Shown: piece by piece, positions 39,071 through 54,487 of the stretch
Numbering within the stretch: the stretch's first letter is position 1
How the letters are laid out: the number at the start of each line of letters is the position of its first letter
From: an uncultured Gammaproteobacteria bacterium
GTDB lineage: Bacteria > Patescibacteriota > Microgenomatia > UBA12405
DNA length: 55,510 nucleotides
Assembly: GCA_964497945.1 (NCBI GenBank)
Contig: CAZCFJ010000002.1
Coordinates: 1-55,510 of the forward strand
Reading direction: 5' to 3'
Notes under the pieces: generated by a model
Told to the model about the DNA's origin: nothing
What the model saw: only the letters and a program-made list of their open reading frames with translations
The model's database searches: none
Made by a program: the position numbers and the translations under genes

Positions 39071-39321
39071 TGTCCAAAATTTTTACTTGGGTTATCATTA
39101 TTAGTCTGGCTATTCAAATTGGTTTTTCTTTTTTTTATTCCAACGAAATCATTAATCAAAATTATCAACTTGATCAATATCAAACTCAAGTTGATCAACT
39201 TAAATTAAATATTGAATCAGTCGAAAAACAATTATCTAACCTTAGTTCTATAAATAAAATTAGTCAAAGTACCTCTTCAGCCTCCGTTACTATTACTCAA
39301 ACTGTAAAAATTATCAAATAA
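39070..39321 (+). CDS. FtsL-like small bitopic division protein
   Basis: 83 aa with an N-terminal TM and a coiled coil. It occupies the position between rsmH and ftsI. Confidence 0.5.
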   Translation: MSKIFTWVIIISLAIQIGFSFFYSNEIINQNYQLDQYQTQVDQLKLNIESVEKQLSNLSSINKISQSTSSASVTITQTVKIIK

Positions 39322-40973: not shown

Positions 40974-40986
40974 TTAATCACCTTCA

Positions 40987-42273
40987 ATGCTACAAAAAAT
41001 AAAGAATTTGTTCTTTCATTTACCAAAAAGTATTTTTTATCAAGCCTACTATCATTTTCCCACCAAAAAACTTACTCTTATTGGTATTACTGGAACTGAT
41101 GGAAAAACTACTACTGCTACATTGGTCTATGAAACCCTAAAAAAAGCTGGCATTAATGCTGGTGTTATTACTACTATTAGTGCCAAATACGACGACCATG
41201 AAATTGACACTGGACTTCATATGACCAGTCCTGACCCTTCCGTTATTCAAAAAATATTTAAAACTATGGTTGACGCCGGGATAACTCATGTAGTTTGTGA
41301 AGTCACTGCTCATGCTCTTGATCAATATCGATTTGCTGGTTGTCATTTTGCTGTTTCTGTTATTACTAATACCTCTCATGAACACCTCGATTATTTTAAA
41401 AACATGGACCAATATATTCAAACCAAAGCTAAAATTTTTGATCAATCTGAAATTTGTATTCTTAACAAAGACGATCCATCATACGAAAAAATTATCAAAA
41501 CTTTCCCCAAAAAATTTTTAAGTTACAGTGTCGACAAAAAATCAGATTATCAAGCCACCAACATTATCATTAAATCAAATTCATTATCTTTCAATATTAA
41601 AAATAATTCTATTTTTACTGACAGTCCTTACCGTTACCAAATTTATAATATTCTCACCGCCTTTTCTATTATGGATCAGCTCCAAATTGATCAAAATTTT
41701 TTAATTGAAACTGTCAAAAATTTTCCTCTCACCAAAGGTCGTCGTGAAGAAGTTCCCAACCAGTTAGACATCAAAGCTATAGTTGATTTTGCTCACACCC
41801 CTAACGCTATTAAAAATACATTATCTTCACTTAAAGAAACCAATTCCGGCAAAATCATTGCTATTTTTGGCGCTACCGGTGGTCGTGATCAAAGCAAACG
41901 CCCTCAAATGGGATTAGTCGTCTCTCAATTAGCCGATATTGCCATTATTACTTCAGATGATACCCGCGACGAAGATATTCAAGACATCAATAAACAAATT
42001 ATCAGCGGCATCAAACCAGACTCTGTTTTAGTCGATACTACTGATTTTTCAGAAATTAAAAAAATTATTAAATCCAACAAAAACAAATTTATTTATTTCA
42101 ATATCCCCAACCGACAAGATGCTTTTAATCTAGCCATTCAATTATCACAACCAAAAGATACTATTATTGCTATGGGTAAAGGTCACGAGACCACCATTCT
42201 CCATGGCAAAACGGAATTTCCCTGGTCAGAAACCGAGGCTTTTCGTTCTGCTTTTAAACTCAAACAAAATTAA
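40987..42273 (+). CDS. murE: MurE-like Mur ligase lacking the N-terminal (UDP-binding) domain
   Basis: The P-loop GITGTDGKTTTA starts at about residue 33. Other matches are HVVCEVTAHALDQYR, TNTSHEHLDYF and ITSDDTRDED, which aligns to the MurE DNPR region. 428 aa. Confidence 0.7.
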   Translation: MLQKIKNLFFHLPKSIFYQAYYHFPTKKLTLIGITGTDGKTTTATLVYETLKKAGINAGVITTISAKYDDHEIDTGLHMTSPDPSVIQKIFKTMVDAGITHVVCEVTAHALDQYRFAGCHFAVSVITNTSHEHLDYFKNMDQYIQTKAKIFDQSEICILNKDDPSYEKIIKTFPKKFLSYSVDKKSDYQATNIIIKSNSLSFNIKNNSIFTDSPYRYQIYNILTAFSIMDQLQIDQNFLIETVKNFPLTKGRREEVPNQLDIKAIVDFAHTPNAIKNTLSSLKETNSGKIIAIFGATGGRDQSKRPQMGLVVSQLADIAIITSDDTRDEDIQDINKQIISGIKPDSVLVDTTDFSEIKKIIKSNKNKFIYFNIPNRQDAFNLAIQLSQPKDTIIAMGKGHETTILHGKTEFPWSETEAFRSAFKLKQN

Positions 42274-42274
42274 T

Positions 42275-42874
42275 ATGACTCAATTTAATATTCAAAATCA
42301 ACTTTCGCCGGCAGAAAATTATCAATCAGGCCTTTTACCCCAACGCAACCAAATTAATTTTTGGTATCAAGATTCTAGTAGCCGTTCGAACCTATCCAAT
42401 TTTCAATTAAGTTCAGAAAATCGCCGGATTATTAACAAAACTCAGGAATTTACTTATCAACTTATTTCTCTAAAAGATTTTAATTACACTCCAAAAGTTC
42501 AGAAACAAATTTTTTCCTGGCTCAAACTGTTAGGATGGGATTTCCCCGTTAGTTCAGTTAAAACAATATTCACTAACCATATTTTTAATTATCTTTATAT
42601 TTGGAAAGATCAACAACAAAATACCGTTGCTTATTCAATCTGCTATTTTTCTAAAGAAATAAGTCATATCGCTTATGTTTTTTATGATCCCCAATATAGC
42701 CATGGTAATTTACCTATCAGATTAGTTCTTCAAACAGTTTCTGATAGTCATGATAGGGGATTAAAATATTGTTACCTTGGCCGTTTTTCTTCAGAAACTG
42801 GTTTTTACAAACGCAATATGCCCGGTTTTGAATATTTCGATTCTAAAAATAAACAATGGATTAAGTATCTTTAA
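42275..42874 (+). CDS. ATE_C/Bpt-like (arginyl/leucyl-tRNA--protein transferase C-terminal domain) homologue
   Basis: The start is set at ATG 42275. SSENRRIINK resembles SKNQRR. ISHIAYVFYDPQYSHGNLPIRLVLQ and GLKYCYLGRFSSETGFYKRNMPGFEYF resemble the SAVYTFFDP and YxYLGYW...KMxYKxxFxPxE blocks of the Bpt/ATE1 C-terminal domain. Confidence 0.55.
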   Translation: MTQFNIQNQLSPAENYQSGLLPQRNQINFWYQDSSSRSNLSNFQLSSENRRIINKTQEFTYQLISLKDFNYTPKVQKQIFSWLKLLGWDFPVSSVKTIFTNHIFNYLYIWKDQQQNTVAYSICYFSKEISHIAYVFYDPQYSHGNLPIRLVLQTVSDSHDRGLKYCYLGRFSSETGFYKRNMPGFEYFDSKNKQWIKYL

Positions 42875-42935
42875 TTCTAATTTAAAATTTAATATTCAGA
42901 TTTGATTAAAAATTAAAAATTTCAAATTAAAAATT

Positions 42936-42973
42936 CTTTTACTTTAAACTTTCAACTTTATACTTTCAACTAA
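42936..42973 (+). repeat. ACTTT-octamer array upstream of the start codon
   Basis: CTTTTACTTTAAACTTTCAACTTTATACTTTCAACTAA. Confidence 0.75.
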
Positions 42974-42976
42974 TTT

Positions 42977-44353
42977 ATGAATATTCATATTCTCGGTATT
43001 GCTGGCAGTATGACTGCCAATTTGGCTGTAGCTCTCAAAAAATTAGGCAACATTGTCACTGGTTCTGATCAGGAAAAAATTTTCCCTCCAGTCAGCACTA
43101 CTCTCAAAAAAGCCAATATTTCAATCAATTCAACTACTATCAATAAAAGTATTGATTTGGCCATTATTGGTTCTTCATATGGTTCTTTTGATAAAACTAA
43201 AGAAGAGTTTGAACAAATTAAAAAATTAAAAATTCCTTATATTTCCGCTACCGAATACATCGCTCAAAATTTAGTCAAATCAAATTCAGTTGTTGTTGCT
43301 GGCAGTTTTGGCAAAACCACTATCACTAGCCTAATTAGTTGGATTTTTTCTCAATCTAACAAAAAACCTAGTTTTATGTTTGGCGGTAACCCAAAAAACA
43401 AATTCGACTCTTTTAAGTTTTCTAATTCCAATTGGTCAATTGTTGAAGGTGATGAATCCATCCATGGTCTCGATAAACAAGCCAAATTTTTATATTATCG
43501 ACCCAAATATTTAATTATCACCAGTGCCGATTGGGAACATAAAGATTGTTATCCAAATGAAAAATCTAATTTTGATGCCTTCAAAAAATTAGTCCAACAA
43601 TTGCCTTCAGATGGAATTTTAATTCTCAATAGCCAAAGCCAAACTTCCCTAAAATTAGCCAAATATTCTCCCTGCCAAGTTATTACATATAATTCTCCCA
43701 ATTCCAATTATTTCATTGAAAATATCAATCGCCAAAACGAAATCACCAACCTCTTAATTCACACTCCAAACGGATTAATAAAAACTACTACTAGTCTTAT
43801 CGGTCAATTCAATTTTGAAAATATTTTAGCTGCTTTTAGCCTTTGTGACAGTTTAAATCTAAGCCATTATTCTATTTCTAAATCAATTATGTCTTATAAG
43901 GGTGTTAAACGACGTTTAGAATTAATTGACAAACGAAATAATATTCTTTTCTTTGATGACTTTGCTCAATCCAATCAAAGAATTATATCGGCATTATCGG
44001 CATTAAAACAGCATTTCCCTAATAAAAACATAAAAGTATTATTCCAACCTCACGCCTCATTTAGTCAATACAAAAACAGTCTTTGTGAACTCAAAAATTC
44101 TTTTGATTTAGCTAACGAAATCGTTCTCACCCAATTAAAATTCAACCCTAGTATTAGCAAAAAAGATCGTAATACTGCCAAAGATTTTCGCAATTGTCTT
44201 GGTTCAAAACTCATTTATCTCCCTCTCAAAAAGCAAATAATAAAGTATTATAAAGATAGTCTGATGCCAAATGATATTTTAATTTATATGAGTTCTGGTG
44301 GTCTTGAAGGTAATCGTATCTTCAAATCTATTATCAACAGTTTCAAAAAATAA
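42977..44353 (+). CDS. Mur ligase of the MurC/Mpl family, with an Mpl-like N-terminus
   Basis: IHILGIAGSMTANLAVALKKLGNIVTGSDQEKIFPPVSTTL matches the Mpl pattern IHILGICG...VTGSDxxxYPPMSTxL. Also present are IPYISATEY and VVAGSFGKTT. Confidence 0.7.
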   Translation: MNIHILGIAGSMTANLAVALKKLGNIVTGSDQEKIFPPVSTTLKKANISINSTTINKSIDLAIIGSSYGSFDKTKEEFEQIKKLKIPYISATEYIAQNLVKSNSVVVAGSFGKTTITSLISWIFSQSNKKPSFMFGGNPKNKFDSFKFSNSNWSIVEGDESIHGLDKQAKFLYYRPKYLIITSADWEHKDCYPNEKSNFDAFKKLVQQLPSDGILILNSQSQTSLKLAKYSPCQVITYNSPNSNYFIENINRQNEITNLLIHTPNGLIKTTTSLIGQFNFENILAAFSLCDSLNLSHYSISKSIMSYKGVKRRLELIDKRNNILFFDDFAQSNQRIISALSALKQHFPNKNIKVLFQPHASFSQYKNSLCELKNSFDLANEIVLTQLKFNPSISKKDRNTAKDFRNCLGSKLIYLPLKKQIIKYYKDSLMPNDILIYMSSGGLEGNRIFKSIINSFKK

Positions 44354-44360
44354 TTTTATG

Positions 44361-44418
44361 TACTTTCAACTTTCTACTTTATACTTTTCACTTTATAACT
44401 TTATAACTTTTAACTAAC
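44361..44418 (+). repeat. ACTTT-octamer array upstream of the murA start codon
   Basis: TACTTTCAACTTTCTACTTTATACTTTTCACTTTATAACTTTATAACTTTTAACTAAC. Confidence 0.8.
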
Positions 44419-44420
44419 TC

Positions 44421-45749
44421 ATGTCTCGATATATTATTACTGGTGGTAATCAACTTCATGGCGAAGTTTCTATTCGCGGTGCCAAAAATGCTAGCTACAA
44501 ACAAATCATTGCCGCTCTTTTAAGTGACCAAACCACCCAATTAACCAATGTTCCCAAAATTTCTGACGTCAAAATCACCGAAAGTATTGCCAAAAGTGTT
44601 GGCGCTAACATTGAATATTGTGGCGAACATTGTTTAGAAATTAGTGCCAAAAAAATTACCAATTCTACTGTTCCTATTGGTACTGGCGAAAAATCGCGCA
44701 CTTCATTTATGTTTTCTGCCCCTCTTTTAGTTCGTACTGGTGACGCTATTGTCCCTATTCCTGGTGGCGACAAATTAGGTATCAGACCTCTTGATCGTCT
44801 CTTTGATTGTTTCCAACAAATGGGGATTTCTACTGAAATTTCTGACAACCAAATTAAATTTCACACCAACAAAATTAAACCAGTTCATTATGTTTTTAAT
44901 AAGCCTAGTCATACCGTTACTGAAACTATTCTTATGACTGCCGCTTTCGCCGATGGTCAAACTGTTTTAGATAATGCCGCTCAAGAACCAGAAATTGACG
45001 ATCTTATACTTATGCTCAACAGTATGGGTGCCAAAATTATTCGTAATCCCCAAGACCAGAAACAAATTATTATTGATGGCATCAACTCACTCAATGGCAC
45101 TCATCATCAAGTAATTTGTGACCGTAATGAAATCGTTACTTTTGCTTGTGCTGCTTTGGCTACCAAGGGTTCAATTAATATTTTAAGAAGTGACTCTAAA
45201 ACAGTTCAAACGTTTTTAGATACTATCGAAAAAATGGGAGCTAAAGTTGTTCCAGGTAAAGATGAAATTACCATTTCTTGGATTCAACCATTAAAAAATA
45301 TTGATATTGTTACCGGACCAGAACCAGAATTTATGACCGACTGGCAGGCAATTTTCTCTGTCTTATTAACCCAAACAGTTGGTTGTAGTTCCATTATCGA
45401 AAGGGTTTATCCTTCACGTTTTCAACACATTGAAAATCTCCAAAAAATGGGTGTTAAAGCTGTTTTGTTTAACCCAGAAATTGATAATCCGGAAACCTTT
45501 TATCAATTTAATCCAGAAAGTGACCGACCAGAATTTTTCCATGGCGTAAAAATCTACGGACCAACAAAATTAAAACCAGCTAATTTCACCATTAATGATC
45601 TTCGTGCTGGTGCTTCGACTACTTTGGCTGCTCTTACTGCTGAAGGCATCTCAATTATTGATGGAGTTGAATTTATTGAAAGAGGTTACGAAAAGCTAGC
45701 CGAAAGACTTTGCTATTTAGGTGCTAACATAGAATATATAAAAACCTAA
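44421..45749 (+). CDS. murA: UDP-N-acetylglucosamine 1-carboxyvinyltransferase (Asp variant at the catalytic Cys position)
   Basis: Contains IRGAKNA and IPGGDKLGIRPLD, where canonical MurA has GGC. 442 aa. Confidence 0.95.
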   Translation: MSRYIITGGNQLHGEVSIRGAKNASYKQIIAALLSDQTTQLTNVPKISDVKITESIAKSVGANIEYCGEHCLEISAKKITNSTVPIGTGEKSRTSFMFSAPLLVRTGDAIVPIPGGDKLGIRPLDRLFDCFQQMGISTEISDNQIKFHTNKIKPVHYVFNKPSHTVTETILMTAAFADGQTVLDNAAQEPEIDDLILMLNSMGAKIIRNPQDQKQIIIDGINSLNGTHHQVICDRNEIVTFACAALATKGSINILRSDSKTVQTFLDTIEKMGAKVVPGKDEITISWIQPLKNIDIVTGPEPEFMTDWQAIFSVLLTQTVGCSSIIERVYPSRFQHIENLQKMGVKAVLFNPEIDNPETFYQFNPESDRPEFFHGVKIYGPTKLKPANFTINDLRAGASTTLAALTAEGISIIDGVEFIERGYEKLAERLCYLGANIEYIKT

Positions 45750-45753
45750 AATT

Positions 45754-46788
45754 ATGATTCACCTTTATCTTGGCTTATTACTTTTTTCCTTTCTTATTAC
45801 GAGTCTTTTAGTTGTTCCCTTTATTAATCTACTATATAAGCTCAAATTCCAGCGTCAGAGACAAAACACTACTGACTTTCAGAACAAAAAAACCCCTATT
45901 TTCGACAAATTTCACAATATTAAAACCGGCACCCCGGTTGGTGGAGGACTTTTAATTATTCTTTCTGTCTGTATTCTTTTTTTAATTCTTTTCCCAGCTA
46001 TAAAAATTTCCAACATTTTTATTTCCACTAATTATCAAATTGTTCACGAGTTAGGTATTGTCTTTTTCACCTTCATTAGTTTTGGACTTCTTGGCTTATA
46101 CGACGATATTTACAAGTTTTTTGGTTTTAAACGCACTGGTTTTTTTGGCCTCAAAATGATTCATAAACTCATCCTTCAATTAATTCTTTCTGTCATAATT
46201 TCTTGTTTAATTTATTTCACCCTCAAAGTTGATTTTATTTATATTCCGTTTCTTGGTGCTATTCATTTAGGCTGGCTTTTTATTCCCATTTCTACCATCA
46301 TAATCACCGGCTTCGCCAACTTTTTTAATATCACTGATGGTCTTGATGGTTTATCATGTGGACTTTTAATGATTGCCTTATTTGCCTTTTGGTTTTTATC
46401 CAGCAGTTCCCTTGATACCCCCATATCGATGTTCCTTTGTTTATGGATTGGTAGTCTAATTGCTTTTCTTTATTTCAATGTTTATCCGGCGCGTATCTGG
46501 TTAGGAGACGTTGGAGCTTTATCTTTTGGAGCCACATTTGCCGTTATTGCCTTAATATTAGGTAAAATTGTTCCATTAATTATCGTCGGGTCACCTTTCA
46601 TTATTGAAGGTTTAAGTAGTGCTATTCAAATTTTTAGCAAAAAGTATTTTGGCAAAAAAGTTTTCCCTGCCGCTCCATTCCACCTCACCCTTCAAAGCAT
46701 TGGTTGGGAAGAACCTAAAATTGTCACTCGTGCTTGGCTGGCTGGAATTATTTTAGCTATTTTCGGACTATGGTTAGGACTAAATTAG
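45754..46788 (+). CDS. mraY: phospho-N-acetylmuramoyl-pentapeptide transferase
   Basis: Contains FFNITDGLDGLSCGL and YPARIWLGDVGALSFGA. About 10 TM segments. Confidence 0.9.
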   Translation: MIHLYLGLLLFSFLITSLLVVPFINLLYKLKFQRQRQNTTDFQNKKTPIFDKFHNIKTGTPVGGGLLIILSVCILFLILFPAIKISNIFISTNYQIVHELGIVFFTFISFGLLGLYDDIYKFFGFKRTGFFGLKMIHKLILQLILSVIISCLIYFTLKVDFIYIPFLGAIHLGWLFIPISTIIITGFANFFNITDGLDGLSCGLLMIALFAFWFLSSSSLDTPISMFLCLWIGSLIAFLYFNVYPARIWLGDVGALSFGATFAVIALILGKIVPLIIVGSPFIIEGLSSAIQIFSKKYFGKKVFPAAPFHLTLQSIGWEEPKIVTRAWLAGIILAIFGLWLGLN

Positions 46789-47345
46789 ATCAACTCAAAC
46801 AGGAAATCGAACATTATATCGATCTCCCATATATGATCAATATTATTCGTGATGGAAAAATAATCAAGCCACGTTTTATGGGTGCCAAAGGTCACTGGAA
46901 AGATATTGATAAAGAAACTAAACGCCTAGCCAAAGAAAATCACATTGATCTGAAAAAACTTTCCTCACAACGTTTATACAACTTTCAAAAAAAACATAAA
47001 ATCGGCATTGACTGCTCTGGATTAGCTTCTCAATTATTAATTTACTACGGTAAATTATCGGGCAAAAAAATAACCATTAATCCTCGCCACACTTCAGCTG
47101 AGATGCTTACTTCAGAGCCTTTATCCACCAAAATTGACGATCCTGATAATATCCGAACCGGTGATCTTATCCGTCAAAAAAATGGTCACCATGTATTATT
47201 TATCATCGAAAAGAAAGGTAAAACAATTGATTATGTCGACAGTTCTTTCTGGGGTAGAGGAGTCAAATACGGTCAAGTTGATCTAGCTGACCCAATGTTC
47301 GATAATCAGGGAATTTACCGTCTTAAATTACTTTTCCTCAATTAA
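46770..47345 (+). CDS. NlpC/P60 (C40) family protein without a signal peptide
   Basis: The start is set at ATG 46770, a 19-nt overlap with mraY. The catalytic Cys motif is KIGIDCSGLASQLL and the His motif is GDLIRQKNGHHVLF. The N-terminus is hydrophilic. Confidence 0.6.
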   Translation: MVRTKLDQLKQEIEHYIDLPYMINIIRDGKIIKPRFMGAKGHWKDIDKETKRLAKENHIDLKKLSSQRLYNFQKKHKIGIDCSGLASQLLIYYGKLSGKKITINPRHTSAEMLTSEPLSTKIDDPDNIRTGDLIRQKNGHHVLFIIEKKGKTIDYVDSSFWGRGVKYGQVDLADPMFDNQGIYRLKLLFLN

Positions 47346-47492
47346 TTCCCGGTATTCCAAAGGATCAATTGATAGAATTTCTACTTCAGTTCCACACTCC
47401 CCACATTCCAAAATATCGCCAATCATCATCCCTTCGGTTGGTTTAATTTCAGAACTACAATCAGGACAAATAATATTAGTTGTTTGTGTCAT
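47328..47492 (-). CDS. LysW-like zinc-ribbon protein (amino-group carrier protein family-like), 54 aa
   Basis: My own translation is MTQTTNIICPDCSSEIKPTEGMMIGDILECGECGTEVEILSIDPLEYRELIEEK. It matches the LysW pattern CPxC-N16/17-CxxCGxExEvxxxDPL with an acidic tail. It is not in the ORF track because it is under 60 aa. Confidence 0.6.
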   Translation of the reverse strand: MTQTTNIICPDCSSEIKPTEGMMIGDILECGECGTEVEILSIDPLEYRELIEEK

Positions 47493-47534
47493 AAGGCTAA
47501 AGAATATATAATTAAGCTTAAGTTAACCCATTAT

Positions 47535-48356
47535 ATGACAAACACTCCTTTAGTCCAATTAGACAATTTTTATCTCAAACGGGAAGATCAAAATATTACC
47601 GGCTCAGCCAAAGATAGAGCAATTCCATTTCAAATTGAAAATCTTAAAAAAAATGGTTTTACCCAGGCAGTTATTTCTAGCACCGGCAATGCTGCTATTT
47701 CTGCCGCCCACTTTTGTCATCAAGAAAATATTAAATTGACAATTTTTTTGTCACCCCACATTGCCCCAGAAAAATTAAATTTGCTCAAAAAATACGACCA
47801 CGAAATTATTCTTTCACATCAACCAATCAGTGATGCTGTTAAATTTTCAAAATCCCTCCATGCCTATCTTTTACGTCAATCTACTGATCCCTCAAGTCTA
47901 ATCGGTTATCAAACTATTGCCCAGGAGTTAGCAGAACAACTCCCTCAAATTACCAGCATTTTTATTCCTGTTGGCAGTGGGACTACTCTTCTGGGTATTT
48001 CTCAAAAACTTCCTAAAAATGTCAAAATTTTTGGAGCCCAATCGGCTGCTAATCCTACTGTTAGTAAAATTTTCGACCCTAATTTTACCCCGGAAAATCG
48101 ATTAATTACCGATGCTCTTTCGGTTAAGTTTTTACCCAATAAAGACAAAGTTATTAATGCCATCAAAAATAGTTCCGGTTCTTGTCTAACCATTCAAAAC
48201 GAAAATATTGTCACTGCTGATTCTTATTTAAAATCAAAAGACATTATAACCTCTCTCGAAGGTGCTTTATCCTTTGCTGCCTACCAAAAAGCTCAAAAAA
48301 ATAATCTTAACATTGGTCAATATCCCATTATTTTATTAACCGGAGCCAAACGTTAA
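47535..48356 (+). CDS. PLP-dependent enzyme, fold type II (PALP; threonine synthase/cysteine synthase-like)
   Basis: The start is set at ATG 47535 (MTNTPLVQL). The Lys motif is ITGSAKDR. SSTGNAA and the Gly loop PVGSGTTLLG are also present. Confidence 0.7.
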   Translation: MTNTPLVQLDNFYLKREDQNITGSAKDRAIPFQIENLKKNGFTQAVISSTGNAAISAAHFCHQENIKLTIFLSPHIAPEKLNLLKKYDHEIILSHQPISDAVKFSKSLHAYLLRQSTDPSSLIGYQTIAQELAEQLPQITSIFIPVGSGTTLLGISQKLPKNVKIFGAQSAANPTVSKIFDPNFTPENRLITDALSVKFLPNKDKVINAIKNSSGSCLTIQNENIVTADSYLKSKDIITSLEGALSFAAYQKAQKNNLNIGQYPIILLTGAKR

Positions 48357-48357
48357 T

Positions 48358-49524
48358 ATGAACCTCTTTGATCAAATTAACCAGTCAAATTATGTTTTTT
48401 ATTTTTTAGTCGTTGATAATTTTTTAGACATAACCTTACCTCAACTAAAAAATTTTCATCTCATTTATTCTTCTACCCCAAAACAAAAAGATTATTTAGA
48501 TTCACAGAATATCCCTTATTTTATTTCTCCAACCAACGATGTTCAAAATAGTGGCAAACTTTTAGCCGATTCTTCAGTCCAAAATTATATAAATTCCACC
48601 TCTAACAATCGACAAATAGTTATTGTTCCTTTTAAACCATCTGCTAAGATTGAATTTATTTGCCGTCAAAACAATTGGATTTGTGCTGCTGTTGATCATC
48701 AACTTAACCGTTTTCTCGAAGATAAAAATGAACTCACCCTTTTCTGTCAAAAAAATAATTTACCCATTATTTCATCGGTTGTAGATTTATTTAATCAAAC
48801 AAATTTTGCTAAATACCAACAACAATTCCAAACCAACCAACTAGTTACCCAAACCCATTTTGGTTGGGCTGGTAAAAGTACCTTTTCTGCCAATAGTTGG
48901 GAAGAAATAAAAAACAGTATTCCTTCAGAAACCAAAGTAAAATTTTCTCCATTTTTAAACGGTTATTCATTATTAAATAATTGCTGTCTAACACAAACCG
49001 GTCTCATTCAAAGTCCTCTGGCTTTACAATACACTGGCCTACCCGAATTTACCTCTAACCCCTTTACCACCGTTGGTCGCCAATGGCCTTGTTTAGCTCC
49101 AGAAGGAATTCAAAATCAAATTAAACAAATCACTACTGACTTTGCCAAAATAATTCAATCATTGTCTTATAAAGGCTTTTTTGGTTTAGATTTTTTAGTT
49201 TCTAATAATCAAGTTTATTTACTAGAATGCAATCCTCGCCTTACTGCCTCTTTTGCTTTTTATACTCAAATTGAAACTAATCAAAACCTTAATCCATTAT
49301 TTCTTTTCCACTTATCTCAATTTATTAACCTACCTTCAATTCCAACAGCTTCAGAATCCCAATTATTAATTGACTCGAGCAAAATTATTGGTTCTGAAAT
49401 CACTCTCAAAAATCAAGACAGTCAAACTATCAAAAAATATCACGATTTTACCGCTTTTTCTCAAAGTCTAGACCCCATTAATATTCCCCAAAATATTGTT
49501 AACCTGCTCCATGAGAAAGGATAA
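48358..49524 (+). CDS. ATP-grasp family ligase
   Basis: Contains GFFGLDFLVSNNQVYLLECNPRLT. 388 aa, starting 2 nt after the PALP gene stop. Confidence 0.65.
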   Translation: MNLFDQINQSNYVFYFLVVDNFLDITLPQLKNFHLIYSSTPKQKDYLDSQNIPYFISPTNDVQNSGKLLADSSVQNYINSTSNNRQIVIVPFKPSAKIEFICRQNNWICAAVDHQLNRFLEDKNELTLFCQKNNLPIISSVVDLFNQTNFAKYQQQFQTNQLVTQTHFGWAGKSTFSANSWEEIKNSIPSETKVKFSPFLNGYSLLNNCCLTQTGLIQSPLALQYTGLPEFTSNPFTTVGRQWPCLAPEGIQNQIKQITTDFAKIIQSLSYKGFFGLDFLVSNNQVYLLECNPRLTASFAFYTQIETNQNLNPLFLFHLSQFINLPSIPTASESQLLIDSSKIIGSEITLKNQDSQTIKKYHDFTAFSQSLDPINIPQNIVNLLHEKG

Positions 49525-50704
49525 ATCACCTTTAATCAGTCTAGTTTTTTTTCTAATCGGAGTCGGTTTTACTTTTATCTCCATCTCTTCTCTCACTGAG
49601 GCCAATAATACCGCCGGTGACAAATTTTATTTTCTTAAAAAACAGGGATTTTGGATTTTAGTCAGCTTAATCGCCCTTTTTATTGCCTCTAAAATAAAAA
49701 TAGAAATAATCAAAAAAATATCATCCCTAATCTATTTTGGATCGATTATTGGATTAATATTAGTTCTAATCCCTGGATTTAGTAATCAAACTTTAGGTGC
49801 CCATAGATGGCTTAATTTAGGAATTTTTAGTTTTCAACCGTCAGAACTATTTAAATTTAGTTCAATTATTTATTTTGCTATCATTTTTTCTCAGGAATCA
49901 AAACGCAACCTTACTAATCTAGTTTTTCATTTAAGTATCCCCTTTGTTCTAATTATTTTAGAACCAAATTTAAGCACTGCCATTCTTACTTCGGCCATAA
50001 TTATTTCTATGTATTATCTTGCTGGAGGCAAAATTATGCCCCTTTTTATATTTTGCGCCAGTCTAATTAGTCTTTGCTTTATTTTAGTTATTAGCTCACC
50101 CTACCGTTCCGCCCGACTTCAAACACTCATTAATCCCGAGTCCAATGGGGACAGCACTTCATACCACAGTAATCAAATTGTTTTATCTATCTCTTCTGGC
50201 GGTTTATTTGGCAAAGGTTTTGCTAATTCTGACCAAAAATATCGTTTTCTACCAAAAATTTCCACTGATTCAATTTTAGCCATAATAGGGGAGGAAATGG
50301 GATTTTTTGGTGTTCTCATTGTCCTTCTAATTTATGTTTTTTTGATCTCTTACTTAATTAAAATATCTACCCTCATAAAAAATGACCAATTTGCTTCACT
50401 TTTAATTTCTGGCGTTGCTTGTTGGATTGCCTATCAATCTCTAATTAATATTTCAGCTATCGCCAACATTATCCCCTTAACTGGGGTACCTTTACCTTTT
50501 GTTTCTTACGGCGGATCATCTCTTTTAACTTTAATGACATCAATTGGTTTAGTTCGCAATCTCGAAAAAAGACACAGTTTGTTGCTATACTCTGATAATG
50601 ATTCCAATCAAAAAAAGGATTCTCATCACCGGAACCCATCTTACTCCGGCCGTCGAACTAATTCGCCAACTTCAACAAGACCAAAAAGTCGATTGGCACA
50701 TTAG
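49496..50704 (+). CDS. ftsW: SEDS-family peptidoglycan polymerase FtsW
   Basis: Contains FQPSELFKF and PLPFVSYGGSSLL. ATG 49511 is an alternative start. The 3' end runs 107 nt into murG. Confidence 0.85.
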   Translation: MLTCSMRKDKSPLISLVFFLIGVGFTFISISSLTEANNTAGDKFYFLKKQGFWILVSLIALFIASKIKIEIIKKISSLIYFGSIIGLILVLIPGFSNQTLGAHRWLNLGIFSFQPSELFKFSSIIYFAIIFSQESKRNLTNLVFHLSIPFVLIILEPNLSTAILTSAIIISMYYLAGGKIMPLFIFCASLISLCFILVISSPYRSARLQTLINPESNGDSTSYHSNQIVLSISSGGLFGKGFANSDQKYRFLPKISTDSILAIIGEEMGFFGVLIVLLIYVFLISYLIKISTLIKNDQFASLLISGVACWIAYQSLINISAIANIIPLTGVPLPFVSYGGSSLLTLMTSIGLVRNLEKRHSLLLYSDNDSNQKKDSHHRNPSYSGRRTNSPTSTRPKSRLAH

Positions 50705-51698
50705 CTACATCGGGCGTCAATCAAATTCCAACGATGTCAAAGATGTCGCTATTGAATCTAAAATGATTCCTTCATTAGGTATCGATTATTTTTCTATTCC
50801 TTGTGGTAAACTTGACCGACGATATTTACCTAATACTCTTATTGGTATTCCTAAAACTATTTCTGGTATTTTTCAAGCCTTTTCATTAGTCAAAAAAACT
50901 CATCCTGACATTGTTATTTCTTTTGGTGGCTACGTTTCTGTTCCTGTTATTTTTAATTCCTATCTAAACCATATTCCTAGTATCACTCATGAACAAACTT
51001 TAACCAATAGCCTTACCACCAGAATTAATAGCCATTTTGTTAACAAAATTGCCTTATCTTTCGATAATTCAGAACAAATTAATCAACTTCCACCTGAAAA
51101 AATTATTATCACTGGTAATCTTCTCCGCAACCAATTATTTCAAAAACAAGAAATTCCACCTTTAATTAAAAATTCAAAATTAAAAATTAAAAATTTAATT
51201 TACATCACCGCCGGTAATCAAGGATCTCATTTTATTAACACCACTATTCAACAATTATTACCAAAATTAAAAAAATTTAATATTATTCATCAAACTGGCA
51301 AAAATGATATTAACCAATTCGAATCTCTCTCATTAATTTATTCGAATTATCTGGCCACTGATTATTTCGACACCGATATTTTACCTTGGATTCTTCAAAA
51401 CGCCGAAGTTGTCATTAGTCGAGCCGGGGCTAACACTAGTCAAGAGATTGTGGCTCTAAAGAAAAAATCAATTTTAGTTCCATTACCTCAAAGTCAACAA
51501 GACGAACAAATTCTCAATGCTAATTGGGTCAAAAAAAATCTGCCCAGTTCCACTATCATTATTCCTCAAACAGAACTTAACCCTGACAGTTTATTCTCGG
51601 CAATTAACCAACTTTTAAAAGTCAAAATTACCAATAAACAAAATTCTTTACCCAAACCAAATTACCAACTGCTCAATCTAATTCATGAAACAATTTAA
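50598..51698 (+). CDS. murG: UDP-GlcNAc:lipid I GlcNAc transferase MurG
   Basis: Contains RILITGTHLTPAVEL (a variant G-loop), FGGYVSVPV, TGNLLR and SRAGANTSQEI. Confidence 0.8.
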   Translation: MIPIKKRILITGTHLTPAVELIRQLQQDQKVDWHISYIGRQSNSNDVKDVAIESKMIPSLGIDYFSIPCGKLDRRYLPNTLIGIPKTISGIFQAFSLVKKTHPDIVISFGGYVSVPVIFNSYLNHIPSITHEQTLTNSLTTRINSHFVNKIALSFDNSEQINQLPPEKIIITGNLLRNQLFQKQEIPPLIKNSKLKIKNLIYITAGNQGSHFINTTIQQLLPKLKKFNIIHQTGKNDINQFESLSLIYSNYLATDYFDTDILPWILQNAEVVISRAGANTSQEIVALKKKSILVPLPQSQQDEQILNANWVKKNLPSSTIIIPQTELNPDSLFSAINQLLKVKITNKQNSLPKPNYQLLNLIHETI

Positions 51699-52071
51699 AA
51701 TTGTTGGCCCCACCATTTTATTCATCATCATTTCAACTATTATTCTAATTTCTATTAGTTCACAACAAAAATCAACTATTTTTGATCCAAAATCTGACAA
51801 AAATAACTTTTATCAAAATCTTAATTTAGCCATTAATACCGCAAAAATATCAACTTCCACTATCACTGTTCGCGACTTTAATAATCAAGTTGAGTTTTAC
51901 CTTTCTCAAGATAATCAAAATATCAAAATTATTCTTTCTGATCAAAAAGATCCTTTCTGGCAAATTTCTTCTTTGCAAGACATCATAAAAACCGCTAGAA
52001 TTAATCATCAAACACTCAAATTAGTTGATTTGAGTCCAGCACATCCTTATGCAACATTCAAAAATAATTAG
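51685..52071 (+). CDS. small bitopic protein in the FtsQ/DivIB position
   Basis: 128 aa with an N-terminal TM. It lies between murG and ftsA with overlaps on both sides. The call rests on position only. Confidence 0.35.
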   Translation: MKQFKIVGPTILFIIISTIILISISSQQKSTIFDPKSDKNNFYQNLNLAINTAKISTSTITVRDFNNQVEFYLSQDNQNIKIILSDQKDPFWQISSLQDIIKTARINHQTLKLVDLSPAHPYATFKNN

Positions 52072-53296
52072 CGGTATCGACATCGGTACCTCCAAAATCA
52101 CTACAATTATTGGGCAGTATTCTGATACTGAAGATAAATTTAATATTGTTGCCGTCTCTTCAATTCCATCCCTTGGCTTTCGTAAAGGTCAAATAATTAA
52201 TATTGAACAAGCCTCATCAACTATTGTTCAAAGTATTGAATCTGCCGAACGCATGGCCGGTTTTCAAATAAATTCTGCTTCAGTTTGTCTTTCCGCTCCA
52301 CACATTGAATCCATCAATTCTCATGGTGTTGTCGCTATTAGTAATCCTAATGGTGAAATTAACCATGAAGACATTGATCGGGTTGTCGACGCCGCCAAAG
52401 CTATTGCTGTTCCTACTGGCAAAGAAATTATTCATATTATTCCCATCAAATATACCGTTGATGGTCAAGAGGGAGTTATTGATCCTGTTGGTATGAACGG
52501 TGTCAGGCTTGAAGTTGAGGCTCACATAATTATTGCCTCCACTCCATCCCTCAAAAATCTCAAAAAATGCCTTGAAGATATTGGTATCAAAATTGACCAA
52601 TTGGTTTATTCCGGATTGGCCACAGCCAAATCTACTCTCACTGAAACTGAAAAAGAATTAGGCGTTGCTCTCATCGATATTGGCGGTAGTATCACTACTT
52701 TGACTATTTTTAATGAAGGCTCCCCAGTTTATTCATCGGTTATTCCGGTCGGCGCCGGTAATGTTACTAATGATTTAGCCATTGGTCTCCGCTTTTCTCT
52801 TGATGATGCCGAAAAAATTAAACTTCGCCTTAATAAAATTTCTGAATCTAAAAAATTTGAAGACGAAATTGAACTCTCTAGTTTTGGTATTCAATCAGAT
52901 GACAAACGTCGTGTCTCTATCCAAACCTCAATCAATGGTATTATTAAACCTCGCTTAGAAGAAATTTTCCATTTAATTTATTCTAAAATTGACGAAAGCG
53001 GCTTTGCCTCAACTATCCCAGCCGGAATTGTTCTTACTGGTGGTGGAGCCCAAACCGTCAATATTAAAGAAACTTGCGAAAAAATTATTCCCTTACCACT
53101 TCGCATTGCCACTCCACCAAAAGTTGGTGGTATTATCGATGATATTATTAATCCTGCCTACAGCAGTTCTATTGGTCTTTTGATGTTTAGTAATGATTTC
53201 AAAAAAAACATTTCAAATTCTCCAAAAAAAACCAAGGTTTCCGCCGGTAGTTTTTTTAGTAAAATCAAAAAATTAATAGAGCCTTTAATGCCTTAA
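52049..53296 (+). CDS. ftsA: cell division protein FtsA
   Basis: Contains ISGIDIGTSKITTIIG, ALIDIGGSITTL and VLTGGGAQ. Confidence 0.9.
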   Translation: MQHSKIISGIDIGTSKITTIIGQYSDTEDKFNIVAVSSIPSLGFRKGQIINIEQASSTIVQSIESAERMAGFQINSASVCLSAPHIESINSHGVVAISNPNGEINHEDIDRVVDAAKAIAVPTGKEIIHIIPIKYTVDGQEGVIDPVGMNGVRLEVEAHIIIASTPSLKNLKKCLEDIGIKIDQLVYSGLATAKSTLTETEKELGVALIDIGGSITTLTIFNEGSPVYSSVIPVGAGNVTNDLAIGLRFSLDDAEKIKLRLNKISESKKFEDEIELSSFGIQSDDKRRVSIQTSINGIIKPRLEEIFHLIYSKIDESGFASTIPAGIVLTGGGAQTVNIKETCEKIIPLPLRIATPPKVGGIIDDIINPAYSSSIGLLMFSNDFKKNISNSPKKTKVSAGSFFSKIKKLIEPLMP

Positions 53297-53302
53297 GTTT
53301 TT

Positions 53303-54472
53303 ATGGGACTTATCAAAACCTTAGCAGGTCAATTCGCTAAAATTAAAGTCATCGGTGTTGGTGGCGGTGGTAATAATGCTATTAATTCCATGATTTCCGA
53401 AGATAGTATCAAAGGTGTCGATTTTATTGCTATCAATACTGACTCTCAAGCTTTATTAAATTCTTTAGCCCCGATAAAAATCCAAATTGGTGAAAAGCTT
53501 ACCAAAGGTTTAGGTGCTGGCGGTAACCCTCAAATGGGTCAAAAAGCCGCTGAAGAATCCCGTGAACGTATCAAAGAAGTCCTAGCCGGTACTGATATGG
53601 TTTTTATTACTGGAGGTATGGGTGGTGGTACTTGTACCGGAGCTGCTCCATTAATTGCTGAAATTGCTAAAAAAGAATTAGGAATTTTAACTATTGCCGT
53701 TGTTACTAAACCTTTTATGTTTGAAGGTACTCGCCGTATGACCAATGCTGAAGAAGGTATTTCTCAACTCCGCAATAATGTTGATACTTTAATTGTTATT
53801 CCTAATCAAAAAGTTATGGAAGTGGTTAATAACAAAGCCACTCTGATAGAGGCCTTTAAAATTGCCGATTCAGTTTTAAACAAAGGCACCAAGGCTATTG
53901 CTGATTTAATTACTATTCCGGGACTAATTAATCTTGATTTTGCCGATATTAAAGCAGTTATGAGTAATGCCGGTTCAGCCCTCATGGGTGTCGGCGAAGC
54001 CGAAGGTGAAGATCGCTCTCGATTGGCCGTCGAGGCAGCTATCCAATCACCACTAGTTGAAGTTGATATTGAAGGAGCCAGGGGAGTTTTAATCAATATT
54101 ACTGGTGGAGAAGATTTAACTATGGCTGAAATCGAAGAATCTGCTCGAACTATTACTCAACGAACCGCTCCCGACGCTAATATTATTTTTGGGGCAACTA
54201 TTGATCCGGAGTTAAAAGGCAAAATAAAAATTTCTGTTATTGCCACCGGTTTCGACAGTACCAAAGCTCATTTTTATCAGTCATTCAAAAAACCAAGTCC
54301 AATTACTGTAAATTCTAATCCTTTAACTCAAACTCCACCATCAGAAACTATCGAATCAATTCCTGTCGATAATCAAGAAATTAAAAAATATTTAGGCGAC
54401 AAAGACATTCCCGCCGGCATTGATATCGTTGATGAGTTCGACATCCCTGCATTTTTACGTAAAAAAAATTAG
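53303..54472 (+). CDS. ftsZ: cell division protein FtsZ
   Basis: Contains IKVIGVGGGGNNAINSM, GGMGGGTCTGAAPLIA and the C-terminal DIPAFLRKK. Confidence 0.97.
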   Translation: MGLIKTLAGQFAKIKVIGVGGGGNNAINSMISEDSIKGVDFIAINTDSQALLNSLAPIKIQIGEKLTKGLGAGGNPQMGQKAAEESRERIKEVLAGTDMVFITGGMGGGTCTGAAPLIAEIAKKELGILTIAVVTKPFMFEGTRRMTNAEEGISQLRNNVDTLIVIPNQKVMEVVNNKATLIEAFKIADSVLNKGTKAIADLITIPGLINLDFADIKAVMSNAGSALMGVGEAEGEDRSRLAVEAAIQSPLVEVDIEGARGVLINITGGEDLTMAEIEESARTITQRTAPDANIIFGATIDPELKGKIKISVIATGFDSTKAHFYQSFKKPSPITVNSNPLTQTPPSETIESIPVDNQEIKKYLGDKDIPAGIDIVDEFDIPAFLRKKN

Positions 54473-54487
54473 CGTATAATCTTGTGT

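What the first reader, a model, noticed from the sequence alone, without database searches (positions are those of the whole stretch)
47328..47492. Unlisted 54-aa LysW-like zinc-ribbon gene inside the cell-wall cluster
The minus strand encodes MTQTTNIICPDCSSEIKPTEGMMIGDILECGECGTEVEILSIDPLEYRELIEEK. The spacing of the two Cys pairs, the GD/E-I-x-E-C-x-x-C-G-x-E-V-E-I-x-S-x-D-P-L block and the acidic C-terminus resemble LysW/ArgW. Those are amino-group carrier proteins that an ATP-grasp ligase (LysX/ArgX) loads through a C-terminal Glu. Here the tail is ELIEEK rather than the canonical EDWGE ending. No lysine or arginine pathway genes are nearby. The gene is divergent from a PALP plus ATP-grasp operon and converges on the NlpC/P60 gene with an 18-bp overlap. 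A carrier-protein-based amino-acid modification feeding peptidoglycan would be new, but the functional link is only my inference.
Basis: partly seen in the sequence, partly recalled or inferred. Interest (0 to 1): 0.78.

Follow-up and report, generated by a model that had tools for sequence, protein, structure and literature searches.

The report
Lysine-tailed LysW carrier in cell-wall operon
A tiny, strongly conserved zinc-ribbon protein of the LysW carrier family, ending in an invariant lysine rather than the usual glutamate, always sits next to a PLP enzyme and an ATP-grasp ligase among peptidoglycan genes in two unrelated bacterial phyla, which points to an undescribed carrier-protein step in cell-wall precursor synthesis.

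Summary
The 54-aa ORF at 47328..47492 (-) is real. It passes Pfam's LysW zinc-ribbon threshold, its model matches solved LysW chains best, and its dN/dS is about 0.12 across 76 genomes.

It is not a canonical LysW:
- It scores below the TIGR01206 cut-off.
- Its tail is shorter and ends in ..EEK. The terminal Lys is present in 131 of 131 relatives.
- No LysX/Z/Y/J homologues are in the window; LysK was not searched.

It defines a separate "K-tail" LysW subfamily. In every context I could read, this gene lies beside a ThrC-like PLP enzyme. Where the contig allowed, a PF02655 ATP-grasp follows. Mur ligases, MraY, a cytoplasmic NlpC/P60-like hydrolase and often an ATE-like aminoacyl-tRNA transferase are usually nearby. 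The contexts cover Shapirobacteria, other low-GC lineages and Dormibacterota (32-67% GC). A canonical EDWGE LysW used as control sits with LysX/Y/Z/J and an M20 peptidase instead.

Best reading: a carrier or scaffold whose C-terminal lysine is the working site. I infer that an amino acid is tethered to it by the ATP-grasp, modified by the PLP enzyme, and released by the NlpC/P60-like enzyme for the stem peptide. The genetic linkage is shown. The chemistry is inferred. I found no published description.

The parts
47328..47492 (-). K-tail LysW-like zinc-ribbon protein, 54 aa. Cys9/12/30/33, net charge -10, tail ..ELIEEK.
47530..47557 (-). Sigma-70-like promoter match (TGGACT-16-TATAAT, 10/12). 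It ends 38 nt upstream of the LysW-like ATG and lies inside the 5' end of the PALP gene.
   Evidence: This is a consensus match only.
47535..48356 (+). PLP-dependent fold-type II enzyme, 273 aa, closest to threonine synthases but far below their family cut-offs. PLP-lysine motif GSAKDR; loop SSTGNAAISA.
48358..49524 (+). ATP-grasp ligase, 388 aa, PF02655 type, with an intact E-x-N-x-R motif. In most relatives its start overlaps the PALP stop by 4 nt.
46770..47345 (+). Divergent NlpC/P60-like cysteine hydrolase, 191 aa, with no signal peptide. Invariant GIDCSG cysteine and His141. It overlaps the 3' end of the LysW-like gene by 18 bp.
42275..42874 (+). ATE/Bpt-like aminoacyl-tRNA transferase homologue, 199 aa.
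   Evidence: It is fused in frame to the MurC-like ligase in L178.
42977..44353 (+). MurC/Mpl-like Mur ligase, 458 aa. MurC model 235 bits (cut-off 335); Mpl model 185 bits.
40987..42273 (+). MurE-subfamily ligase, 428 aa, lacking the N-terminal domain. The match starts at model position 73.
45754..46788 (+). MraY. The module occupies the mraY-ftsW slot where murD normally lies.
49511..50704 (+). FtsW, which marks the downstream border of the module.

Best explanation
The ORF encodes a member of a distinct 'K-tail' branch of the LysW carrier-protein family. It has an acidic Cys4 zinc-ribbon globule and a short tail of fixed length that ends in an invariant lysine.

It works with three enzymes encoded around it: the ThrC-like PLP enzyme, the PF02655 ATP-grasp ligase and the cytoplasmic NlpC/P60-like cysteine hydrolase. 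Together they act in the cytoplasmic stage of peptidoglycan precursor synthesis.

Shown: fold and family, purifying selection, the invariant terminal Lys, and strict gene linkage across unrelated phyla.

Inferred mechanism (about 0.3 on its own):
1. The ATP-grasp activates a carboxylate of a free amino acid, most plausibly Glu or Asp. It joins it as an amide to the N-epsilon of the C-terminal Lys. The polarity is the reverse of canonical LysW, and the amino acid's alpha-amino group stays free.
2. The PLP enzyme acts on that free alpha-amino acid head. The reaction could be epimerisation to the D form or a beta/gamma replacement.
3. The NlpC/P60-like enzyme cleaves the isopeptide bond. This regenerates the carrier and hands the product to a Mur ligase. 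That ligase is MurD-like in two lineages. In the others it is the ATE-like transferase plus the MurC/Mpl-like ligase.
For: Family and fold:
- PF21344 scores above its cut-off.
- The AF2 model has pLDDT 83, and all six top PDB matches are LysW chains.

Selection and tail:
- dN/dS is about 0.12.
- 131 of 131 K-ending relatives keep the terminal Lys. Position -2 is Glu in 127 and position -3 is Glu in 126.
- The tail is 21-22 residues after the second CxxC, against 26-28 in DWxE-ending LysW.

Linkage:
- The order mraY / NlpC-P60-like / LysW-K / PALP / ATP-grasp / ftsW is invariant in 76 Shapirobacteria genomes.
- 59 of 59 ATP-grasp-anchored metagenome loci with enough flank carry PALP and LysW-K.
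- Nine separate look-ups of more distant K-tail relatives, 32-67% GC, all place LysW-K beside PALP. All eight whose contig extends past PALP also show the ATP-grasp.
- In Dormibacterota the set NlpC/P60 / MurD-like / LysW-K / PALP / ATP-grasp lies away from the division cluster.

Control: a canonical EDWGE LysW sits with LysX(RimK)/LysY/LysZ/LysJ/M20 instead.

Argument for the Lys side chain:
- The YLMVQK-tailed relative keeps the whole module, so the Glu carboxylates are dispensable and Lys is not.
- A PLP enzyme needs a free alpha-amine. That excludes tethering through the substrate's amine (established PLP chemistry).
- PF02655 is, from memory, the PylC-type family. PylC acylates Lys N-epsilon.
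- NlpC/P60 enzymes typically cut gamma-D-glutamyl-diamino-acid bonds (established knowledge). Both the window protein and the Dormibacterota NlpC/P60 lack signal peptides.

The ATP-grasp looks catalytically competent. Its model has pLDDT 95, and E290, N292 and R294 are invariant.
Against: - There is no biochemical or expression evidence. No covalent adduct has been seen.
- Most of the synteny counts come from one clade inside a very stable gene cluster. Only the roughly nine distant contexts are independent.
- The LysW-like gene is on the opposite strand, so it is not co-transcribed with its proposed partners.
- The PLP enzyme is nearest to threonine synthases, not to known racemases. Its reaction is unknown.
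- The ATP-grasp has no detectable sequence similarity to PylC, LysX or Asl structures.
- The tail is short: seven residues after the globule.
- I could not test whether murD, murI, alr or ddl are absent from these genomes.
Confidence: 0.55

Rival explanations
1. Carboxylate-end model. The ATP-grasp activates the alpha-carboxylate of the terminal Lys and adds an amino acid through its amine. This resembles RimK on S6 or tubulin tyrosine ligase. The PLP enzyme then uses the side chain of the appended residue as nucleophile on an aminoacrylate, as CysM does with CysO. The NlpC/P60-like peptidase trims the product off.
For: - Canonical LysW, RimK and TTL all work on acidic C-termini (established knowledge; PMC12998189 as read, PMC4431377 as read).
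- The tail is acidic and ends with a free carboxylate.
- A carrier + PALP + protease triad has a precedent in CysO/CysM/Mec (from memory).
- The PALP family is also related to CysM and SbnA.
Against: - The identity of the terminal side chain would then matter little, yet Lys is 131/131 while the acidic residues can vary.
- The ATP-grasp is not RimK-type.
- This route needs a more contrived chemistry.
Confidence: 0.15
2. The enzymes work without a covalent carrier. PALP and the ATP-grasp are non-orthologous stand-ins for the usual PLP racemase plus ATP-grasp ligase pairs of wall synthesis. Those pairs are Alr + Ddl, or Asp/Glu racemase plus an Asl-type cross-bridge ligase acting on the Lys N-epsilon of the precursor. 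The LysW-like protein is a non-covalent regulatory or assembly subunit, or a mimic of the ..Glu-Lys end of the stem tripeptide.
For: - Peptidoglycan synthesis universally needs such PLP + ATP-grasp pairs, and ATP-grasp ligases make D-Asp and D-Glu cross-links (PMC2922099, read).
- No ddl, alr or murF is seen in the window.
- Fold-type II Ser/Asp racemases are among the PALP family's PDB relatives.
- A distant sister ATP-grasp family on Rhizobium plasmids pairs with PLP enzymes and a cysteine hydrolase without any LysW.
Against: - The strict co-occurrence, the invariant terminal Lys and the fixed tail length look like a tail that enters an active site.
- The mimic idea needs Glu at position -2, which the VQK variants lack.
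- It gives no role to a cytoplasmic NlpC/P60-like hydrolase.
Confidence: 0.2
3. It is an ordinary LysW/ArgW amino-group carrier for lysine or arginine biosynthesis, as NCBI and JGI pipelines name many of its relatives.
For: The Pfam LysW domain matches, and source names read 'lysine biosynthesis protein LysW'.
Against: - It scores below the TIGR01206 cut-off.
- It has no C-terminal Glu or EDWGE.
- There is no LysX/Y/Z/J in the window or in any K-tail context. A canonical control shows all of them.
- It lies in peptidoglycan clusters in every case.
Confidence: 0.02
4. It is a chance ORF in AT-rich DNA on the strand opposite a long operon.
For: It is short, it is the only minus-strand gene in the cluster, and no clear Shine-Dalgarno sequence is visible.
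Against: The profile E-value is 1e-9 and dN/dS is about 0.12. The gene is conserved at 56-96% identity, while its immediate neighbours (PALP, ATP-grasp, NlpC/P60-like) fall to 34-50% identity in the more distant genomes.
Confidence: 0.01

Closest known systems
LysW/ArgW amino-group carrier proteins (Thermus, Sulfolobus, Thermococcus; also Streptomyces secondary metabolism)
   Same: Same Cys4 zinc-ribbon globular domain by profile and by fold. Similar size (about 54 aa). Strongly acidic. A flexible C-terminal tail with a conserved end. Encoded next to an ATP-grasp ligase.
   Different: - The tail is five residues shorter and ends in Lys, not in ..EDWGE.
- The partner ligase is PF02655 type, not LysX/RimK.
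- There is no LysZ/LysY/LysJ/LysK. The partners are a ThrC-like PLP enzyme, an NlpC/P60-like hydrolase and Mur ligases.
- The genomic setting is cell-wall synthesis, not lysine or arginine synthesis.
PylC (pyrrolysine synthesis), which I recall as the reference member of the PF02655 ATP-grasp family
   Same: An ATP-grasp that joins an amino-acid carboxylate to the N-epsilon of lysine. This is the reaction type proposed here.
   Different: PylC acts on free lysine. No sequence match to PylC structures was detected here. The family link rests on the Pfam hit alone.
CysO / CysM / Mec+ (Mycobacterium cysteine synthesis on a protein carrier)
   Same: A small carrier protein whose C-terminus enters a fold-type II PLP enzyme (PALP), followed by release by a dedicated hydrolase.
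   Different: That carrier has a ubiquitin-like fold with a thiocarboxylate. Its activation is by adenylation, not by an ATP-grasp. Its release enzyme is a JAMM metalloprotease.
RimK on ribosomal protein S6; tubulin tyrosine ligase with vasohibin
   Same: An ATP-grasp ligase and a papain-like cysteine peptidase acting on an acidic ..EE(X) C-terminus whose last residue is genetically encoded.
   Different: Those systems are regulatory protein modifications, not metabolite carriers. They involve no PLP enzyme.
Asl (D-aspartate ligase) with aspartate racemase; Alr with Ddl
   Same: A racemase plus ATP-grasp pair that serves the peptidoglycan stem or cross-bridge. Asl acylates a Lys N-epsilon.
   Different: Neither pair uses a protein carrier. 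Their racemases belong to other folds. No detectable specific similarity was found.
MurD2/MurL of Xanthomonas (L-Glu added first, then epimerised on the precursor)
   Same: An alternative route to D-Glu at stem position 2, in which the amino acid is epimerised while tethered.
   Different: In that system the tether is UDP-MurNAc-L-Ala, not a protein, and the enzymes are unrelated. This comparison is recalled from memory.

Membership tests
LysW/ArgW amino-group carrier protein | LysW-type Cys4 zinc-ribbon globular domain | tested here: met
   PF21344 scores 38.4 bits against a cut-off of 27. Cys9/12/30/33 are conserved. The top six Foldseek PDB hits are LysW chains with probability 0.96-1.0.
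LysW/ArgW amino-group carrier protein | Reaches the curated equivalog score (TIGR01206 lysW; NF041070 archaeal LysW/ArgW) | tested here: not met
   32.3 bits against 53.2, and 26.7 bits against 75.
LysW/ArgW amino-group carrier protein | C-terminal Glu (..EDWGE) whose gamma-carboxylate takes the substrate's amino group | tested here: not met
   The tail is ..ELIEEK. The terminal Lys is present in 131/131 relatives. The tail is 21-22 residues against 26-28.
LysW/ArgW amino-group carrier protein | Partnered with a LysX/ArgX (RimK-type) ligase and LysZ, LysY, LysJ, LysK | tested here: not met
   None appears in the window or in any K-tail context. LysK was not among the tblastn queries. All are present beside a canonical control.
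LysW/ArgW amino-group carrier protein | Strongly acidic surface for docking on partner enzymes | tested here: met
   Net charge is -10 in the window protein. The median is -9 for the K-tail class and -14 for the DWxE class.
LysW/ArgW amino-group carrier protein | Covalent loading with a pathway intermediate | not testable with these tools
   This needs mass spectrometry of the protein after reaction with the ATP-grasp.
LysX/RimK-type ATP-grasp | RimK (PF08443) and LysX pre-ATP-grasp domains | tested here: not met
   Only PF02655 is hit (32.1 bits, cut-off 23.2). The structural neighbours are PurK, biotin carboxylase and PurT at TM about 0.6. The control LysX shows PF22626 and PF08443.
Threonine synthase (ThrC) | Curated family score; phosphate-binding Arg of the NSxNPxR motif | tested here: not met
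   The best NCBIfam ThrC model scores 115 bits against 358. ThrC structures are the top PDB relatives (E 5e-24), but the ThrC Arg aligns to a variable position. The identity of that Arg is recalled from memory.
Fold-type II PLP enzyme (PALP) | Pfam PALP domain with the PLP-binding lysine | tested here: met
   PF00291 scores 151 bits. Lys26 in GS(A/V)KDR is invariant across 22 diverse members.
NlpC/P60 cysteine hydrolase | Pfam domain and the catalytic Cys/His | tested here: inconclusive
   The window protein scores 15.1 bits against a cut-off of 23. However, 33 of 41 family members hit PF00877 (best E 1.3e-6), and the DCSG Cys and His141 are invariant. The Dormibacterota counterpart is a clear NlpC/P60.
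ATE/Bpt aminoacyl-tRNA-protein transferase | ATE_C domain | tested here: inconclusive
   The window protein scores 23.9 bits against a cut-off of 25. All 15 of 15 family members hit PF04377, best E 4e-11.

The most novel reading that the evidence does not exclude
The module is a carrier-protein route to the L-Ala-D-Glu part of the stem peptide. It would bypass glutamate racemase and, in the candidate-phyla lineages, MurD.

Proposed steps:
1. L-Glu is tethered through a carboxylate to the N-epsilon of the terminal Lys by the ATP-grasp.
2. The ThrC-like PLP enzyme epimerises it while tethered.
3. Its free alpha-amine is acylated, either by the ATE-like transferase using Ala-tRNA or, in Dormibacterota and L088, by a MurD-like ligase. 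ATE/Bpt enzymes prefer N-terminal Asp/Glu.
4. The MurC/Mpl-like ligase joins the product to UDP-MurNAc.
5. The NlpC/P60-like gamma-glutamyl amidase cuts it from the carrier.

Hints that fit this reading:
- The module fills the murD slot between mraY and ftsW.
- Clusters with ATE-like plus MurC-like genes show no MurD-like gene, and the reverse also holds. That is 5 contexts against 2.
- One genome fuses the ATE-like and MurC-like proteins in frame.
Probability: 0.12. Interest if true: 0.92.

Novelty: new variant of a known kind. Interest (0 to 1): 0.76.

Why it matters
LysW-type carriers are known only from lysine and arginine synthesis and from a few Streptomyces natural products. They always carry the substrate by its amino group on a C-terminal glutamate.

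A second, widespread branch would extend this logic in two ways. It has a terminal lysine and a different enzyme set, which suggests a new chemical polarity. It is embedded in the peptidoglycan gene cluster, which would bring protein-carrier chemistry into one of the best-studied and most drug-targeted pathways in bacteria.

It could also explain how reduced candidate-phyla bacteria supply a non-standard or D-amino acid for their wall. In addition, it flags dozens of public records named 'lysine biosynthesis protein LysW' as probably misnamed.

The proteins are small and soluble. The central prediction, a mass adduct on Lys54, can be tested in a test tube.

Tried and rejected
- **Canonical LysW pathway.** Rejected. 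A tblastn search with LysX/Y/Z/J from a control locus found nothing in the window, and the equivalog score was not reached.
- **PALP-ATP-grasp fusion in L009 as a Rosetta stone.** Rejected. The 609-aa ORF spans a run of 100 N.
- **Sequence-profile search of the ATP-grasp family against PDB.** It returned only generic ATP-grasp hits at E >= 0.003. Foldseek on the pLDDT-95 model gave PurK, biotin carboxylase and PurT at TM about 0.6, with no specific relative. The substrate could not be inferred.
- **Structure prediction with an alignment built from fetched loci.** I used database homologues instead.
- **Metagenome scan anchored on the ATP-grasp.** It was meant to find the enzyme without the carrier. 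It kept only the 80 closest relatives, so it did not test distant lineages.
- **Plasmid search.** It found a distant ATP-grasp family in Rhizobium and Chondrinema, next to PLP enzymes and a C45 peptidase. The small neighbouring ORFs are not zinc ribbons.
- **Profile comparison of the ATE-like family with the unknown 287-aa Dormibacterota gene.** No relation was found.
- **Literature searches** on LysW, amino-group carrier proteins, LysW-like proteins and Patescibacteria peptidoglycan. None described this module. The Iyer et al. 2009 ATP-grasp survey, which might mention it, is not held.
Full report
**The observation**

- It is divergent from a PLP-enzyme gene. That gene's likely ATG at 47535 lies 42 bp from the peptide's ATG.
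- An ATP-grasp gene (48358..49524) follows the PLP-enzyme gene.
- The peptide gene converges on a 191-aa gene that ends at 47345, with an 18-bp overlap.
- A good sigma-70-like match (TGGACT-16-TATAAT) ends 38 nt upstream of its ATG.
- The window comes from a 91.9-kb metagenome contig. Its closest relatives are Candidatus Shapirobacteria of the Patescibacteria/Microgenomates group.

**Is it a gene?** Yes.

- Pfam's LysW zinc-ribbon model scores 38.4 bits (cut-off 27, E 1e-9).
- 43 protein clusters and 76 species-representative genomes carry it at 56-96% identity. In the same genomes the neighbouring ATP-grasp and the 191-aa protein have drifted to 34-50%.
- Over the last 31 codons, pN is 0.13 and pS is 0.82, and dN/dS is about 0.12. 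The other two frames of the same strand show no such contrast.
- An AlphaFold model (pLDDT 83) finds six LysW chains as its six best PDB matches. They come from Thermus, Thermococcus and Sulfolobus complexes.

**Is it a LysW?** Only in fold.

- All 76 genomic copies end in EEK, with one EQK.
- A profile search of 1.8 billion representative proteins found 623 relatives. With a follow-up search they fall into three groups:
  - a canonical ..EDWGE class;
  - classes with long acidic tails;
  - a large class ending in ..EEK or ..EEEK.
- In 131 K-ending sequences the last residue is always Lys. Position -2 is Glu in 127 and position -3 is Glu in 126.
- The distance from the second CxxC to the C-terminus is 21-22 residues. 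It is 26-28 in the canonical class.
- No LysX, LysY, LysZ or LysJ homologue is in the window.

**Surroundings in the window**

The order is rsmH, ftsL, ftsI, MurE (lacking its N-terminal domain), an ATE/Bpt-like transferase, a MurC/Mpl-like ligase, MurA, MraY, the 191-aa protein, the LysW-like gene on the opposite strand, PALP, ATP-grasp, FtsW, MurG, FtsQ-like, FtsA, FtsZ.

- The 191-aa protein is a divergent NlpC/P60-like hydrolase. 33 of 41 family members hit PF00877, and the DCSG cysteine and a histidine are invariant. It has no signal peptide.
- The PLP enzyme is nearest to threonine synthases but far below their family thresholds. The position of ThrC's phosphate-binding arginine is not conserved.
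- The ATP-grasp hits only PF02655. Its pLDDT-95 model resembles PurK, biotin carboxylase and PurT at TM about 0.6. There is no LysX/RimK signature, and the E-x-N-x-R motif is intact.
- The four genes from the NlpC/P60-like gene to the ATP-grasp fill the place between mraY and ftsW. In the classical cluster order, murD sits there (established knowledge).

**Is the linkage meaningful?**

Within Shapirobacteria the order is invariant in 76 genomes. It also holds in 59 of 59 ATP-grasp-anchored metagenome loci with enough flank. Those are relatives inside a stable cluster, so they count for little on their own.

The decisive evidence comes from distant K-tail proteins.

| Locus | Lineage or GC | Gene order |
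|---|---|---|
| L083/L084 | Dormibacterota, 67% GC, kingdom Bacillati | NlpC/P60, MurD-like ligase, LysW-K (opposite strand), PALP, ATP-grasp. Not in the division cluster. |
| L085/L086 | 44% GC | MurE, ATE-like, MurC-like, MurA, MurF-like, MraY, LysW-K, PALP, ATP-grasp, FtsW |
| L087 | 35% GC | MurE, PgeF-like, LysW-K, ATE-like, MurC-like, PALP, ATP-grasp, NlpC/P60-like, MraY. All on one strand. |
| L088 | 35% GC | NlpC/P60-like, MurD-like, LysW-K, PALP, ATP-grasp |
| L090 | 45% GC | MraY, NlpC/P60-like, unknown 217-aa gene, LysW-K, RibD_C, PALP, then the contig ends |
| L091 | 42% GC | Full set, with the tail YLMVQK |
| L173, L178, L179 | 39-49% GC | LysW-K, PALP and ATP-grasp present |

BLAST confirms that these PALP, ATP-grasp, NlpC/P60-like, ATE-like and Mur proteins are the counterparts of the window's proteins.

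Two controls behave differently. A canonical EDWGE LysW is followed by LysX (RimK), LysY, LysZ, LysJ and an M20 peptidase. A long-acidic-tail relative has no such partners.

**How it most likely works**

Shown:
- a LysW-fold acidic protein;
- an invariant terminal Lys on a fixed-length tail;
- obligatory neighbourhood with a PLP enzyme, an ATP-grasp and, usually, a cytoplasmic cysteine hydrolase and Mur ligases.

Inferred:
- The tail enters these active sites, as LysW's tail does in LysX/Z/Y (PDB entries; PMC12998189, read).
- The YLMVQK variant keeps the module, so the Glu carboxylates cannot be the attachment site. That leaves the lysine.
- A PLP enzyme needs a free alpha-amino group, so a substrate tethered through its amine (the canonical polarity) could not be processed. 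A substrate tethered through a carboxylate to Lys N-epsilon could.
- ATP-grasp ligases that acylate a Lys N-epsilon are known: PylC, which I recall as the reference PF02655 member, and the D-aspartate ligase Asl (PMC2922099, read).
- NlpC/P60 enzymes characteristically cleave gamma-D-glutamyl amide bonds (established knowledge).

I therefore propose a load, modify, release cycle on Lys54 N-epsilon. Glu or Asp is the most plausible cargo, and epimerisation or replacement is the PLP step. The product feeds a Mur ligase.

I give about 0.55 to the general statement: a functional carrier or scaffold that acts through its terminal Lys with these enzymes in wall-precursor synthesis. I give about 0.3 to the specific N-epsilon cycle.

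**Rivals**

1. Extension of the C-terminal alpha-carboxylate in the RimK/TTL manner, with a CysO/CysM-like PLP step (0.15).
2. PALP and the ATP-grasp replace Alr/Ddl or a racemase/Asl pair and act on free or UDP-linked substrates, with the small protein as a non-covalent subunit or mimic (0.2). The VQK tails weaken the mimic idea, and this rival gives no role to the hydrolase.
3. Canonical LysW (0.02).
4. Chance ORF (0.01).

**A more daring reading**

Three further observations stand out:
- The module occupies the murD slot.
- Clusters with the ATE-like plus MurC/Mpl-like pair show no MurD-like gene (window, L086, L087, L091, L178). The two clusters with a MurD-like gene next to LysW-K (L083, L088) show no ATE-like gene.
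- One genome fuses the ATE-like and MurC-like proteins in a single verified ORF.

ATE/Bpt enzymes acylate the alpha-amine of N-terminal Asp or Glu (established knowledge).

A carrier-tethered (D-)Glu with a free alpha-amine would be such an acceptor. The module might therefore build the L-Ala-D-Glu portion of the stem peptide on the carrier. This rests on seven contexts and on no genome-wide absence data, so I give it about 0.12.

**Novelty**

I found no paper describing a lysine-tailed LysW subfamily or its association with these enzymes. One relevant survey is not held.

Public pipelines name many members 'lysine biosynthesis protein LysW'. That name is probably wrong.

I class the finding as a new variant of a known kind of system: protein-carrier-mediated amino-acid metabolism, placed in a new pathway context.

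Noticed in passing
window 40987-42273 (also L086 6342-7652, L091 6508-7692, L178 13940-15202): The MurE-subfamily ligase is only 394-436 aa long. Its match starts at about position 72-85 of the 472-position MurE model, directly after ftsI. The N-terminal domain that binds the UDP moiety in characterised MurE therefore seems to be missing.
   Followed up: partly
window 42275-42874; L178 11950-13947: An ATE/Bpt-like aminoacyl-tRNA transferase gene sits between murE and the MurC/Mpl-like ligase in all module-bearing candidate-phyla clusters seen. In L178 it is fused in frame to that ligase (about 665 aa), which suggests the two act together.
   Followed up: partly
window 37494-55447: The division/cell-wall cluster contains only two Mur ligases (MurE-like and MurC/Mpl-like). 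No murD, murF, murB or ddl is recognisable. Whether they lie elsewhere in the genome could not be checked.
   Followed up: partly
proteins P0274, P0283, P0285, P0290, P0294, P0296 (L174 6001-6186): Another LysW-like class has long acidic tails ending ..DEDEDE[YF]. It occurs in large genomes (5.5-5.7 Mb contigs) with no LysX-type or PALP/ATP-grasp neighbour. Its function is unknown.
   Followed up: partly
proteins P0068, P0069, P0083, P0092, P0098, P0107-P0109 and others: Many proteins of 120-160 aa consist of two tandem LysW-like zinc ribbons with basic, not acidic, linkers and tails. They form a separate, unexamined family.
   Followed up: no
L176 4131-9322 (Rhizobium leguminosarum plasmid p3, next to nifHDK); L177 2228-9217 (Chondrinema litorale plasmid): A distant sister of the ATP-grasp, annotated 'biotin carboxylase' (25% identity), sits between a large PLP enzyme (or ornithine decarboxylase) and a C45 cysteine peptidase. 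This is the same PLP + ATP-grasp + cysteine-hydrolase triad, but without a LysW-like gene.
   Followed up: partly
L069 8172-9537; also L039, L040, L048, L061, L073 between the LysW-like and NlpC/P60-like genes: Some Shapirobacteria carry a 0.3-1.4 kb insertion here. In L069 it encodes a 350-aa membrane-anchored protein that looks like a LytR-CpsA-Psr wall-polymer ligase, plus a 92-aa ORF. Neither was run against a family library.
   Followed up: partly
L008-L082, record titles: About half of the genome records carrying this Shapirobacteria-type cluster are titled 'uncultured Gammaproteobacteria bacterium' (TPA assemblies), and one is titled 'Candidatus Methanoperedens sp.'. These titles are inconsistent with the gene content and are probably mislabelled bins.
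   Followed up: no
L009 6129-7958: An apparent 609-aa PALP-ATP-grasp fusion is an artefact. The ORF runs through 100 masked N bases.
   Followed up: yes
window 1-37000: By eye, the upstream two thirds of the window look dominated by glycosyltransferase-like and large membrane-protein ORFs, plus a few housekeeping genes. They were translated but not run against any family library.
   Followed up: no
L087 2574-3443: In this locus a Cu-oxidase_4 (PgeF-type) gene lies directly upstream of the LysW-K gene. I recall PgeF as a peptidoglycan editing factor. It sits inside the same single-strand cluster.
   Followed up: no
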